Origin: Sphyrna mokarran
Lineage: Eukaryota
Direction: 5' to 3'
DNA: 64,000 nt
Assembly: GCA_024679065.1 (NCBI GenBank)
Contig: JAGIQG010000024.1
Location: 40,362,001 to 40,426,000, forward strand
Shown piece by piece: positions 11,698-49,790 of the stretch (within the stretch, counting starts at the first letter, position 1; each line of letters opens with the position of its first letter). The notes below the pieces were generated by a model. The model saw nothing but the letters and a program-made list of their open reading frames with translations, did no database searches and was not told the DNA's origin. The position numbers were made by a program, and so were the translations under genes.

Positions 11698-11839
11698 ACT
11701 GGAAAAACTCAACAGCTCTGGCAGCATCTATCAGGAGAGAAACAGAGTAAACACAGAGTCTGTGTACTCAAAATTTTAACTCTGTTTATTCTGTTTCTCT
11801 CCCAATAGATGCTGACAAGAGCTGCTGAGTTTTTCCAGT
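11698..11839. repeat. Inverted-repeat (hairpin) element, probably PLE terminal-repeat derived
   Basis: Arms actggaaaaactcaacagctctggcagcatcta...gagagaaacagag and ctgtttctctc...tagatgctgacaagagctgctgagtttttccagt are reverse complements. Confidence 0.75.
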
Positions 11840-37380: not shown

Positions 37381-37892
37381 CTTTCAGTTCCTGCCAGAAG
37401 CAAGATCAACAAGTGTCCCCGGAATGAGACGCCCAGGAACTGGACAATATAGAGAGCTTGGATATTCTCTCAAATTTCATGGATAAAATTTAACTGAATG
37501 ATAACTTACTGAAAGCCGCTGAAGCTTGGTCAGATTTTGTTCAGTTTAGAAAAATGGATGATTCTTCATCATGGGGTTAAATCAACTATATACAAACTTG
37601 GAGCAACTCCTCTTGGAGATCGAGCATTGACGATTTCTAAATGAGCAATTACCTTTAAATTATTTGACTGTGCGAGAATATCAAAACAGATAGACTCTTA
37701 ACAGGAATTAGGTTCAAAGAAGGGCAACAATAATGAATCTGAAACCTGAAAAGAATTTCTGGGAAAGCATTAATTTCAAGTCAGTTTTATGGAGCAAATG
37801 GGTTTTTCAGCAGTGACAGCCAAGGTGGAGGATGCAGTGCCAGCAGCATTCTTGGATGGTTCGAATATACAAGAGGGACGGGGAACAGTTGT

Positions 37893-40636
37893 CTGGGAAG
37901 GGCACCCATATTTTAGCTGGGAGGTTAGCTGGAGTGTTTCGGCAGGGTTTAAACTAATATGGAGGGGGGATGGGGAGATAGAGGGAACTGGGAGTGGGAG
38001 AGAGATGGGTGATAGGGTAATTCCGGAGAGTAGGAGGGAGGATCAGAGAGTGCCTGAGGGCCTTCAGCGCATGTGTTTTAATGCGAGGAGTGTGACTGGC
38101 AAAACAGATGAACTGAAGGCAATGATGTTCGAGAGGAAGTTAGAAGTGGTGGCGGTGACTGAGACGTGGCTAAAGGAAGGGCAGGACTGGCAATTGAATA
38201 TTCCGGGGTATAAGTGTTTTAGGCATGATAGAGGTGGTTTGAGGAGAGGAGGGGGACTGGCGTTATTAGTTAAGGATCACATCATAGCAGTGCAGAAGGA
38301 GGGTGGTATGGCTGAGTTAGGAATTGAGTCGCTATGGGTGGAGTTGAGGAATCGGAAGGGAGAGGTTACTATGTTGGGTGTGTACTACAGACCGCCCAAC
38401 AGTCCGCGTGCCGTGGAAGAAGGGATATGTAGGGAAATTTTAGATAAGTGTAGGAAGAATAGGGTAGTTGTAATGGGAGATTTCAATTTCCCTGGGGTAG
38501 ATTGGAAGGTGCCGAGAGCGGAAGGTGCGGACGGGGAGGAATTTGTAAAGTGTGTTTTAGAAGGGTCCTTGGAGCAGTATGTGGATAGCCCGACTAGAGA
38601 GGGGGCTATACTGGATCTGGTTCTGGGGAATGAGCCAGGGCAGGTGGTTGACGTTGCAGTAGGAGAGCATGTGTCTAATAGTGACCACAACTCTGTCTGC
38701 TTTAGGGTATTAATGGAAAAAGATGAAGCCTGCCCTAAGGGGAGGGTGTAAAACTGGGGGAGGGCTAGATATAGCCAGATTAGGCAGGATCTTAGGGATA
38801 CCGACTGGGATAAGCTGTTCGAGGGTAGGTCGACACTGCACGTGGGAGTCTTTCAAGGGAAAACTAAAATTTTTGCAGGAAAGACATGTGCCGGTAAGGA
38901 GGAAGGATGGGAAAGGTAGGATTAGAGAACCGTGGGTTACTAGGGATGTTGAGGACTTGGTCAGGAAGAAGCGGGAGGCATATGTTAGATCCAGGCAAGT
39001 GGGGACAGAGACAGCGCTGGATAAATATAGAGAGTGTAGACGGGATCTTAAAAGGGGTGTCAGAAAGGCAAAAAGGGGCCACGAAATGGCTTTGGCAGGT
39101 AGGATTAAGGAAAATCCTAAGGCATTTTACTCCTATGTAAGGAGCAAAAGGATGGTTAGAGGGAAGATTGGACATCTCAGGGACAGAGGAGGGGAACTAT
39201 GCTTAGAGCCTGAGGGAATGGGGGAGATCCTGAATGAATACTTTGCGTCGGTATTCACGCGGGAGAGGGGCCTGATGTCTGTTGCTGATTTTGACAAAGT
39301 TGAGGATCCGTTGAGGGAAATAAAGATTACGAGGAAAGAGGTGTTGGGGCTGTTAGGCAGCTTAAAGACATATAAAGCTCCGGGGCTTGATGGCATTTAC
39401 CCCAGGCTGCTAAGGGAGTTGAGGGAAGACCTAGCTGGGCCTCTGACGCAAATCTTTGTCTCTTCCTTGGACACAGGCGAGGTCCCAGAGGACTGGAGGA
39501 TAGCAAATGTAGTACCGTTGTTTAAAAAAGGTCAGAGGGATAACCCAGGGAAGTATAGGCCGGTGAGCTTGACTTCAGTTATAGGTAAGCTAATGGAGAG
39601 GATCCTCAGGGACAGGATGTATGAGCATCTGGAGCGCTGCGATCTGATCAGGGATACGCAGCATGGCTTCGTCAAGGGGAGGTCGTGCCTTACGAATCTA
39701 GTGGAATTTTTTGAAGAGGTGACAAAAACGGTTGATGAAGGACAAGCCATTGATGTCGTCTGTATGGATTTCACCAGGTTTACCAGGATGCTGCCTGGTA
39801 TGGAAGGACTGTCTTATGAGGAACGATTGAAAACACTGGGGTTGTTTTCCCTTGAAAGACGTCGGCTGAGAGGGGATCTTTTAGAGGTATATAAGATTAT
39901 GAGGGGTATAGATAGAGTAAATGGTGGTAAGCTTTTTCCACCATTAGAAATGGATAGAACGAGGGGTCACGGGCTCAGGGTGAGGGGGGGCTATGTATAA
40001 GACGAATATTAGAGGGCAGTTTTTCACACAAAGGGTAGTGGGGGTGTGGAATGCACTGCTGAGTAAGGTGGTGGGAGCAGGCACTCTAGGGCTGTTTAAG
40101 GGTCTCTTGGACAGCCACATGAGCGTTATGCAGATAGAGGGATATAGTAGGACTGTTTAACTATGGCTTTTTTTTTCCACAGGTAATTCGGTCCATACTT
40201 GACCAACAAGGAGCATGCATTCGGCAGGTGGTGCGAGGACAGCTCTTGGATGTTGATTCATGGGTTGCCTGGTGCTTCATATCGTAAATGAGTGCTTTAT
40301 CTGGACCATCTGAAGGGCACCATGACAGCTCAGTGACTATCGCTGTAGCTGTGCAGACACTTGGAATTGGGCCGGTGTCTGCGGGAGTTTGTGCGTTCTC
40401 CCCGTGGTTGCGTGGGTTTTCTCCGGGCGCTCCGGTTTCCTCCCACATCCCAAAAATTCGCTCTTAGGCTGATTGGGAAACAAATTGACCCTGTATTGAG
40501 ATTCTTCCATATTAGGAATAACCTAAAATTAGAATAAGAAAATGGAATTGTTACTATAAAGTTATGACGGCGGCGCGGGCTCGTTGGGCCGAAGGGCCTG
40601 TTTCCCGTGCTGTGTTGCTCTTTGCTCTTTGCTCTT
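37893..40636 (+). mobile_element. Young CR1 LINE: ORF1 C-terminus, APE endonuclease, internally deleted RT, long 3' UTR, (TTGCTCT)n tail
   Basis: ORF1 end GTHILAGRLAGVFRQGLN*; endonuclease CFNARS, VTETW, GVYYRPP, MGDFN, SDH; RT KAPGLDG, YRPVSLTS, QHGFVKGRSCLTNL. TAA at 38749 and a frameshift near 38840. Confidence 0.93.
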
Positions 40637-47206: not shown

Positions 47207-47369
47207 GGGACAGCACAGTGGCACAGCAGTTATCACTGCTGCCCCACAGCACCAGGGACCCAGGTTCAATTCCCATCTTGGGTCACTGTCTGTGCAGAAT
47301 CTGCGTGTTCTCCCCATGTCTGTGTGGGTTTTCTTTGGACGCTCCAGTTTCCTCTACAGTCCAAAAGAC
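47207..47369 (+). mobile_element. HE1/V-SINE-like SINE 5' half, truncated by an antisense CR1 insertion
   Basis: Head and V core ending at cagtccaaaagac. Confidence 0.85.
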
Positions 47370-47870
47370 AAGGAACAAAGAACAAAACAGCACGTGAAAC
47401 AGGCCCTTCGGCCCAACGAGCCCGCACCACCACCCCGATGTTCCCACCTCTACCCGCGATCCCTGTCCATGTTTATAGATCTATGGATTAAATACCAAAT
47501 TTGAGACAATTTAGGGAGAATTTGTTTTGCCAATTAGCCTAAGAGCACATCTTTGGGATGTGGGAGGAAACCGGAGCTTCCAGAGAAAACCCACGCAAGC
47601 ACGGGGAGAATGCGCAAACTCCCACAGACACAGGCCCAAATCCATATATCTGCACAGCACAGCGATACTCACTGAGCTGTCGTGTTGCCCATCAGGTGGT
47701 CCAGGTCAAGCATACACTAACAACGTGAAGCACTAGGATACTTTCGAAAAAGATCCAAGAGCAGTCCTCTCACGACCCATCGCGTGTATGTCCCTCATTA
47801 GACAACAAGGTGGACCAAAGCACCTGTAGGATAAAAACAAGTACATCAATATCATCATCTATTTACACAC
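47366..47870 (-). mobile_element. CR1 long 3' UTR with captured V-SINE (diverged relative of 40150-40636)
   Basis: Colinear similarity to 40130-40636, including the tail gggccgaagggcctgttt...gctgttttgttctttgttc. Confidence 0.85.
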
Positions 47871-47879
47871 TTCCCAGGG

Positions 47880-49790
47880 ACTCCCAAGGCTCATGATCCC
47901 TATTTATTCTGCAAACTTCTTGATCATCTCCCCCAACATTTAACTCCAATTCATTAATGTACACCACAAATAACAAGGGTCCCAGAACTGAGCTCTGTGG
48001 TACCTCACTAGAAACAGATTTCCAGTCTCAGAAACATCCTCTACCCTCACCCTCTGCTTTCCGTCTCAGCCAATTTTGGATCCAATGCGCTATTTTGGCT
48101 TGGATTTCATGGGCCTTTATTTTCTCGACCAGTCTGCTGTGCAAGACCGTACCAGAAGTCTTACTGAAGTCTACGCAGACTCCATCAAATGCATTACCTT
48201 CATCAACACTCCTGGTTACTGCCTCAAAAAAGACAAAGCAAATCTGTCAAACATGAATTTCTTGTAACAATTCCATGCTGACTATCCCTGATTAATTTGT
48301 GACTATCCAAGCACATGTATATTCCATCCCTCGGGACTTTTTCTGGTAACTTCCCCACCACCAAGGTGAGACTGACTGATCTATCATTTCCTGGTCTATC
48401 CTTGCCTTCTTCATTTAATAATGGAATAATATTAGCAGCCCTCTACTCATAGGTGGCACCTCACCTATGGCAGGAGAGGTTTTGAAAGTTACTGCCAGTG
48501 GCCCTCATATCTCCTTCCTCAACAGCTTGAGATACATATCATCTGGGTCTGTGGATTTATCCACTTTCAACTGTTAATATTTTTCTCTCTCTGTTAGTTT
48601 CCTAGTCCATCCTGACATCTACACCTACATTATCCTTTCTGTTGCGGAGACAGACACAAAGCGTTCACTGAGGGCTGCATCCTTGTCTTTCAGGTTTAGA
48701 CATTACCCATATGGTTGTTAATTGATTCTACTCTTTGCCTCGCTATTCTCATGCTCTTGATATATTTTTTAAAAACCCTTGGTGTTTTCCTTTATTTTAC
48801 CCACCGAGCTTTTTCGTGCAGTCTCTTAGTTTTCCTAATTTACTTAATAAGATACACTCCTGCATTTTTTATACTCCTGTAGGGACTGTACCATATGAGC
48901 TCTCAGTATTTACCATAAACTTCCCTTTTTTCCTCAATCCTGACCTTTAAGACCCTTGATATCCAGGGTTCTATGATCTTGACCCCATCCTTTGTCTTTT
49001 ATGGGATATATTTATCCTGTACTCTCTCTCTCTCCTTCTGGAGAGCCTCCCATTGCTCTGACAGAGTTTCATCTGCAAATCCATTTGGGCCATATTACAT
49101 CTCATCATAGTAAAATTAGCATTTCCCTAGTTAAGAACTTTTATTCCCAATCTATCCTTATCTTTTTCTATAACTATCCTAAATCTAAGTGAATTATGAT
49201 CAATATTTCCAAAATACTCGCCTATTGATATGCCTTCCACCTGCCCAGGGTAGAATTTTCCCTTCCATTGTTGAACTTTATGTAACCAGAATAATAGAGA
49301 GTGGGATAGCTTGATCTAGTGTTTGGACTTAGCTCGGCACAACATTTGAGAGCCGCTGTACTATACTGTTCTATATTCTATATAACAGCTGAAAAGTTCT
49401 TCTGGATCCAATTTAAGAATTTTGTTCCCCGCCAATCTTGCACACTAAAACTATTCCTGTTAATATTTTGGTACTTAAAATTCCCTACTATTAATGCCTT
49501 ATTCCTATATATTTCTGAAAAGTAATTACATATTTGACCCTCTGGGCAGAATTTTCCTGTCCCACCTGCCATGGGAATTGTAACAGGCGAGGGATGGGCC
49601 TCAAGCATAATTTTCATGGTCCTGGAGCAAGTGCAGTTGGAAAATCCTGCTCTCTATCTTTTGCTGATTGTTTGGGGTCAATTGTACACACGCAACAGTG
49701 TGTTTGTACCTTTTCTGTTTCTTACTTCTACCCACATGGCCTCATTCAAAGATAATACCTCCTCACTGCGATAATTGATTCCTTGATTCT
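47880..49790 (-). mobile_element. Old CR1 ORF2 (EN-RT) relic with nested insertions
   Basis: Reverse-complement SSVLGPLLF, YVDFSK and ALIVGNFKYQNIN...FLNWIQKNF (ORF 49378-49617). Confidence 0.75.
49544..49652. mobile_element. 109-bp MITE with 14-bp TIRs and 3-bp TSD (PIF/Harbinger-type)
   Basis: GGGCAGAATTTTCC ... GGAAAATCCTGCTC flanked by TCT/TCT. Related termini at ~9381-9507, ~9921-10025 and ~58509-58720. Confidence 0.7.

What the first reader, a model, noticed from the sequence alone, without database searches (positions are those of the whole stretch)
40165..40312. Conserved ~130-nt structured RNA module behind a splice-acceptor-like motif in a CR1 3' UTR (second copy 47693-47839, minus)
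Seen: two clearly diverged copies both start with a pyrimidine tract plus CAG|GT. Both can close a long-range helix CAGGT-(5-nt bulge)-GGTCCA / TGGACC-A(T/C)CTG. Inside are conserved blocks (GAGGAC.GCTCTTGGAT, CCT.GTGCTTCA) and hairpins that differ in sequence yet pair (TCAT/ATGA versus CAC/GTG; a UUCG-capped stem in copy 2). Most CR1 3' UTRs in this window are short and lack it. Inference: an unannotated cis-acting RNA element (ribozyme, IRES-like, stability or packaging element, or gene-trap acceptor) maintained by the retrotransposon. I cannot assign it to a known RNA family; this is my best candidate for an undescribed system.
Basis: partly seen in the sequence, partly recalled or inferred. 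Interest (0 to 1): 0.7.

Follow-up and report, generated by a model that had tools for sequence, protein, structure and literature searches.

The report
Folded RNA domain in shark retrotransposon
The module is not a separate element: it is a 133-base stretch, predicted to fold, in the untranslated tail of a very abundant shark-type jumping gene (a CR1 LINE), where it likely helps the element's own RNA get copied; the splice-site-like motif in front of it shows no sign of being used.

Summary
The module is real and has about 10^5 copies (21 hits in 600 kb). Wherever upstream element sequence survives, it is the 5' domain of the 420-550-nt 3' UTR of a young CR1 LINE clade: ORF2 stop, spacer, YnNCAG|G, 133-nt module, a full-length captured V-SINE without its B box, CR1 tail.
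Seven subfamily representatives fold into the same three-way junction and rod on the sense strand (z -3.8 to -4.9). The fold decays less than neutral simulation (5/300; ORF2 controls not significant). Two-sided covariation is weak (2 of 43 pairs), and sequence identity (71-83%) is near the four-fold-site rate, far below the SINE part (90-94%).
No Rfam, 5S or MITE match. Copies joined at the acceptor are not in excess (31 versus 61 at a control position) and share no donor, which argues against ribozyme cleavage or productive splicing.
Best reading: a cis-acting structural UTR domain under modest selection (0.5). This scan has reported the SINE-bearing clade several times on other DNA.

The parts
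37866..39773 (+). 5'-truncated CR1 copy 1: end of the ORF1 region and ORF2 endonuclease to start of RT; frame break near 38720-38750; about 700 nt of RT missing at 39775/39776
   Evidence: blastn to long copies; Pfam Exo_endo_phos and RVT_1; ORF list
39776..40160 (+). ORF2 C-terminal part of copy 1; stop TAA at 40158-40160
40161..40183 (+). Short spacer with pyrimidine tract and CAG|G (3' splice-site-like; AG 40181-40182)
   Evidence: use as an acceptor not shown
40180..40312 (+). Structured module, copy 1 (subfamily F1a): closing helix GGUCCA 40190-40195 with UGGACC 40302-40307, short side hairpin, long rod with internal loops
40315..40492 (+). Captured V-SINE: tRNA-like head with the B box deleted (about 40315-40376), conserved central domain (about 40377-40452), following 40 nt
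   Evidence: alignment to free SINE copies of the genome; B-box-like word in 0 of 23 embedded and 20 of 69 free copies; 'V domain' is a recalled label
40493..40636 (+). Fast-changing linker, then CR1-type 3' tail (from about 40570) and short tandem repeat
47827..47905 (-). Copy 2 (subfamily F2): 5'-truncated spacer and pyrimidine tract
47693..47826 (-). Structured module, copy 2
47368..47690 (-). Captured V-SINE, linker and CR1 tail of copy 2

Best explanation
The module is the first domain of the long composite 3' UTR of a young, roughly 100,000-copy CR1 LINE clade, predicted to fold as a three-way junction with a long rod, and it likely acts in cis on the element's own RNA by stabilising or organising the UTR that ORF2 protein reverse-transcribes. 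Shown: position between the ORF2 stop and a captured, B-box-less V-SINE; co-mobilisation with ORF2; copy number; the same predicted sense-strand fold in all subfamilies; slower loss of the fold than in neutral simulation. Inferred: (1) the spacer, acceptor-like motif, module and SINE were picked up together when a CR1 transcript ran into, or switched template to, a host locus that ended in a same-strand SINE with a CR1-type tail; (2) source elements that kept the fold copied better, for example because it shields the UTR or insulates the SINE-derived domain and tail from misfolding; (3) the acceptor-like motif is a relic or a protein-binding pyrimidine tract rather than a splice site that yields mobile RNA.
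For: 29 of the 30 best F1 loci extend 142 nt or more into ORF2 by the upstream test, the remaining one being the window copy itself, and 29 of 30 F2 loci extend upstream of the module. Long copies carry an esterase-like ORF1 (OSK and GDSL hits) and RT. Module z -3.8 to -4.9 on the sense strand in 7 of 7 representatives; minus strand about 0 in 6 of 7. Core helices have pair probability mostly 0.75-1.0 when each subfamily is folded alone. Consensus energy -41.8 against -30.2 +/- 5.3 simulated, 5 of 300; six ORF2 control windows 16/60 to 53/60; an earlier five-family run gave 0/300 and 9/300. 13 of 21 variant pair states keep pairing against 35% expected, p 0.011. Module identity exceeds four-fold sites for F4-F2 (76% vs 59%, p 0.008) and F3b-F2 (77% vs 63%, p 0.036), while the spacer (47-61%) and linker (37-49%) on either side have decayed.
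Against: Module identity does not exceed four-fold sites for F1a-F2 (71% vs 64%, p 0.38), F1a-F4 (81% vs 81%) or F1a-F3b (83% vs 86%). RNAalifold covariation term 0.01, two-sided changes in 2 of 43 pairs; 4 pairs, 18 of 500 shuffles, on related sequences. The structure was derived from the same sequences, so pair counts are circular. The side hairpin is deleted in some copies (L164, L194). All subfamilies come from one genome; scans of viral and metagenome contigs found nothing. No functional data, and no source locus for the module was found.
Confidence: 0.5

Rival explanations
1. Neutral passenger: a hairpin-rich piece of host DNA captured with the SINE and carried along because it lies between ORF2 and the tail; the fold is inherited and slowly decaying.
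For: Sequence divergence near four-fold sites in 3 of 5 comparisons; almost no two-sided covariation; side hairpin and outer helix can be lost; the SINE part is much more constrained (90-94%).
Against: Neutral-decay simulation rooted on a stably folding real sequence reaches the observed consensus energy in 5 of 300 runs, with ORF2 controls not significant; neighbouring spacer and linker have lost far more similarity and length.
Confidence: 0.27
2. Functional 3' splice site: the pyrimidine tract and CAG|G are used, by LINE-internal or host donors, to make a short RNA of module, SINE and tail, or to regulate ORF2 output, with the fold gating access.
For: YnNCAG|G is kept in all eight subfamily groups while -4 and +2 to +5 vary, as at a 3' splice site; CAGG is kept in F3b although its pairing partner changed; such motifs occur once per 3225 nt in background.
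Against: Copies joined at the acceptor number 31 against 61 at a matched control 7 nt downstream; 30 of those 31 and all 7 F1 cases examined share no upstream donor; no joint to the acceptor among the 12 joints listed for four runs held as contigs; chance expectation is 0.14 per 450-nt UTR and a similar motif sits inside ORF2; the branch-point-like word in F1 and F3 can be explained by a microhomology deletion (read from the alignments).
Confidence: 0.13
3. Stop-proximal RNA stability element that works like the Rous sarcoma virus RSE: the pyrimidine tract recruits PTBP1 and shields the lengthened UTR from nonsense-mediated decay.
For: The tract lies within 21-103 nt of the ORF2 stop; PTBP1 sites near the stop protect from decay (PMC4764554, passages).
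Against: Only 2-6 CU-rich 4-mers in the first 200 nt, near chance, against about eleven clusters in the RSE; the UTR is only 420-550 nt and that paper calls a 397-nt UTR fragment NMD-permissive.
Confidence: 0.06
4. Self-cleaving ribozyme, or remnant of a known small RNA or MITE.
For: Stable fold closed by terminal helices; copy 2 reads TA-CAGGT...ACCTG like a Tc1/pogo terminal repeat (recalled resemblance).
Against: No Rfam hit; 5S rRNA of this genome aligns no better than shuffles (674 and 947 of 1000); no free element with such terminal repeats (0 matches); a covariance model finds only family copies in 664 kb; no excess of 5' ends at the module start; cleavage inside the UTR would cut ORF2 from the tail it needs.
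Confidence: 0.04

Closest known systems
CR1 LINEs of elasmobranchs (HER1 type) and their partner V-SINE HE1 (pair listed in a table of PMC3747384, passage seen; Ogiwara 1999 and 2002 not held)
   Same: Esterase-like ORF1, EN/RT ORF2, shared conserved 3' tail and short tandem repeat end; a tRNA-headed SINE with a conserved central domain shares the tail.
   Different: Here the SINE is inside the LINE's own 3' UTR, without B box, behind an extra 133-nt folded domain; other CR1s of the sample have UTRs of a few dozen bases. Identity with HER1 and HE1 themselves was not tested: no reference sequence available.
MER6 MITE carrying a V-SINE domain (PMC6887750; abstract, introduction and first results read)
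   Same: A V domain carried as part of another transposable element.
   Different: MER6 is a non-autonomous DNA transposon; this is a protein-coding retrotransposon, so the captured part must pass through RNA, and the module has no counterpart described in the text read.
Rous sarcoma virus RNA stability element (PMC4764554, passages)
   Same: Structured, pyrimidine-containing cis element just behind a stop codon of an unspliced retroelement RNA.
   Different: No cluster of CU-rich PTBP1 sites, much shorter UTR, no sequence relation tested or seen.

Membership tests
CR1-clade LINE 3' UTR | ORF2 with endonuclease and RT directly upstream | tested here: met
   Pfam Exo_endo_phos and RVT_1; copies extend into ORF2
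CR1-clade LINE 3' UTR | Esterase-type ORF1 (PMC13343379, passage) | tested here: met
   OSK E 1e-7 above its cut-off, Lipase_GDSL_2 E 2e-7 just under its cut-off, in L220
CR1-clade LINE 3' UTR | Conserved 3' tail shared with other CR1s, short tandem repeat end, variable 5' truncation | tested here: met
CR1-clade LINE 3' UTR | Placement by RT phylogeny | not tested
   no tree with reference CR1s was built
Independent SINE headed by the module | Fixed 5' end at the module start | tested here: not met
   31 versus 61 junction copies; 5' ends scattered
5S-derived SINE head (SINE3) | Similarity to 5S rRNA | tested here: not met
   674 and 947 of 1000 shuffles score as well; no RF00001 hit
V-SINE (embedded part) | tRNA-like head with A and B boxes | tested here: not met
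   head aligns to free SINEs but B box is deleted: 0 of 23 against 20 of 69
V-SINE (embedded part) | Central domain homologous to the published V domain | tested here: inconclusive
   78-82% identical to the genome's free SINE family; the V label is recalled, no published sequence compared
Rfam RNA families, including self-cleaving ribozymes | Covariance-model match | tested here: not met
   no hit over the module body at E up to 10; one 13.8-bit mir-379 match at 40146-40199, cut-off 56
Self-cleaving ribozyme | Cleavage in vitro | not testable with these tools
   needs an assay
Spliceosomal 3' splice site | Pyrimidine tract, YAG|G, no AG just upstream | tested here: met
   all subfamily groups
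Spliceosomal 3' splice site | Junction reads or spliced retrocopies | tested here: inconclusive
   no spliced retrocopies; only contigs, no raw reads, could be laid
Tc1/pogo MITE | Free copies with terminal inverted repeats | tested here: not met
   0 matches to one exact pattern; none by model in 664 kb
RSE-like PTBP1 element | Clusters of CU-rich sites near the stop | tested here: not met
   2-6 words in 200 nt

The most novel reading that the evidence does not exclude
A LINE has built a splice-in terminal exon: a conserved 3' splice site, gated by a folded RNA domain, opens onto a promoterless V-SINE and the RT-binding tail, so that splicing controls ORF2 output or host transcripts acquire a mobilisable end. 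About 10^5 such acceptors would shape shark transcripts.
Probability: 0.1. Interest if true: 0.75.

Novelty: new variant of a known kind. Interest (0 to 1): 0.4.

Why it matters
CR1 3' UTRs are usually a short tail. One successful shark lineage carries a 420-550-nt structured UTR with an unclassified RNA domain and a domesticated SINE. Because the element encodes its own RT, both domains can be tested by deletion in a retrotransposition assay, which also bears on the open question of what conserved SINE domains do (hypotheses listed in PMC6887750, introduction). The module alone is the weaker half: modest selection, no known function, no origin found.

Tried and rejected
Rfam at three scopes: nothing. 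5S origin: rejected. MITE origin: no free copies; one exact pattern only. Spliced retrocopies or a ribozyme-made 5' end: no excess, no shared donor. The window copy's 700-nt deletion starts at a donor-like word but is not a clean splice. Recursive-splice reading (CAG|GTAATT): only F1 has a donor-like word. HUSH evasion by a splice signal: PMC8770142 (passages) reports that splice sites around stuffer DNA do not protect. An alternative middle register with two apparent compensatory changes in F1b has pair probability 0.05 or less; left open. Viral and metagenome contigs: 0 matches. Contigs cannot show expression or absence of splicing. A focused look at reads around the acceptor and at other species' variants is still open. 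Literature searches found no description; nine exact search terms in the supplement of PMC13343379, seven of them DNA words, gave no module or central-domain word (two hits of one short word far from a 3' UTR). Repbase, Dfam, that paper's Zenodo deposit and the Ogiwara papers could not be seen, so the family may already be catalogued.

Full report
1. Observation. The two copies exist as stated and are 69.9% identical over 146 nt; similarity continues for another 338 nt at 76%. Rfam has no match over the module at E up to 10. The window copies fold with z -2.6 and -1.9 on the sense strand, and 0.15 and -1.4 on the other.

2. It is part of a common repeat. The 40 best matches are 99-100% identical for copy 1 (408 candidates) and 95-100% for copy 2 (1976 candidates). 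Two exact core patterns give 4363 and 4309 matches with 0 in reversed controls. A profile finds 21 copies in 600 kb of sampled DNA, or about 97,000 genome-wide; the sample was chosen by round coordinates and includes 100 kb beside the window, so this is rough. A covariance model finds only family copies in 664 kb.

3. Anatomy. Copies run upstream into CR1 ORF2 and are 5'-truncated at scattered places. The longest pair shares 3.8 kb and includes an esterase-like ORF1 fragment, and RT and endonuclease domains are present. After the ORF2 stop come a spacer of 21-103 nt ending in YnNCAG|G, the 133-nt module, then from 40315 a SINE that aligns from its first bases to the genome's free tRNA-headed SINE family but lacks the B box (0 of 23 embedded against 20 of 69 free copies), a fast-changing linker, and the CR1 tail. 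The names V-SINE, HE1 and HER1 rest on recall and on a table in PMC3747384 (passages) and text in PMC4824008 (passages); no reference sequence was compared. Other CR1 ends listed have short UTRs. 164 distinct near-complete copies sort into eight groups (F1a, F1b, F2, older F2, F3a-c, F4). Copy 1 is F1a; copy 2 is a truncated F2 beside an older CR1.

4. Fold. Seven representatives have z -3.8 to -4.9 on the sense strand and about 0 on the other, except F2 at -4.0. Shared helices: GGUCCA/UGGACC, invariant; a short side hairpin, shortened in F1 and deleted in some copies; a long rod with internal loops.

5. Selection. For: simulated neutral change from a stably folding real root reaches the observed consensus energy in 5 of 300 runs, while six ORF2 windows give 16/60 to 53/60 (one search gave 0/300 and 9/300 with five families and two transition rates). 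13 of 21 variant pair states keep pairing against 35% expected (p 0.011). Against: the covariation term is 0.01 and 2 of 43 pairs change on both sides; one search gives 4 such pairs, reached by 18 of 500 shuffles; these counts lean on a structure derived from the same sequences. Module identity beats four-fold ORF2 sites in 2 of 5 comparisons (p 0.008 and 0.036) and not in 3; the SINE part beats them in all 5 (90-94%). Selection on the fold is probable but modest.

6. The acceptor. The motif is kept in all groups while -4 and +2 to +5 vary, and CAGG stays in F3b where its partner strand changed. But such motifs occur once per 3225 nt, 0.14 per UTR length, and another lies in ORF2. If splicing or cleavage made RNAs that start here, retrocopies should pile up. 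They do not: 31 junction copies against 61 at a matched position 7 nt downstream. 30 of the 31 and all 7 F1 cases have unrelated flanks or local deletions. Contigs of four runs list no joint at the acceptor, but contigs cannot show absence and the tables were cut. Somatic use by host genes is therefore untested.

7. Origin. Not 5S, no free MITE, no hits in viral or metagenome contigs. The SINE begins two bases after the module and no remnant of the original short CR1 tail precedes it. I infer one capture of host DNA plus a downstream SINE, by read-through or template switch.

8. Mechanism. I commit at 0.5 to a cis-acting structural domain that stabilises or organises the UTR for reverse transcription. 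Position, co-mobilisation and predicted fold are shown; benefit and its nature are inferred. Rivals: neutral passenger 0.27, working splice acceptor 0.13, RSE-like decay shield 0.06 (PMC4764554, passages; CU clusters not met), ribozyme or small-RNA remnant 0.04. HUSH evasion was dropped after PMC8770142 (passages).

9. Novelty. Searches found no description. PMC13343379 (passages; supplement searched) surveys CR1s including sharks and holds none of the module words. PMC5786205 (passages) treats LINE parts inside SINEs, the reverse case; PMC6887750 (first fifth of the text) describes a V domain inside MER6. Repbase, Dfam and the original elasmobranch papers were not visible. Earlier notes of this scan, read after my reading was set, report the same SINE-bearing clade in this and other genomes; they are not independent evidence. 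Verdict: new variant of a known kind, interest 0.4.

Noticed in passing
window 40315-40492 and 47511-47690: The captured SINE part is 90-94% identical between subfamilies whose four-fold ORF2 sites are 59-64% identical; its head has lost the B box but is predicted to keep and strengthen hairpins. It is the more constrained part of the UTR.
   Followed up: partly
20 tail-anchored copies in L095-L114 and L145-L184: No 5' end fell inside the SINE part or linker, while 4 fell inside the module (one at a locus edge); may be a detection bias or a pause of RT at the fold.
   Followed up: no
L092:2165-3111, L093, L094 (5S rDNA cluster on C794): Module-bearing CR1 copies sit at the same place in several 5S rDNA repeat units, apparently amplified with the array.
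   Followed up: no
L112, L164, L167 (subfamily F1b): Four changes fit two compensatory pairs in an alternative middle register that the energy model disfavours; possible second conformation.
   Followed up: partly
L056-L060 (contig C1005): Five copies with identical flanks: segmental or tandem duplication, not separate insertions.
   Followed up: no
window 11702-11835: A long inverted repeat with weak chance-level Rfam matches, perhaps a MITE.
   Followed up: no
L004:1362-1608, run X3: A contig of a metatranscriptome carries a module variant with 26 other letters, including GA after CAG, so related variants occur in other samples.
   Followed up: no
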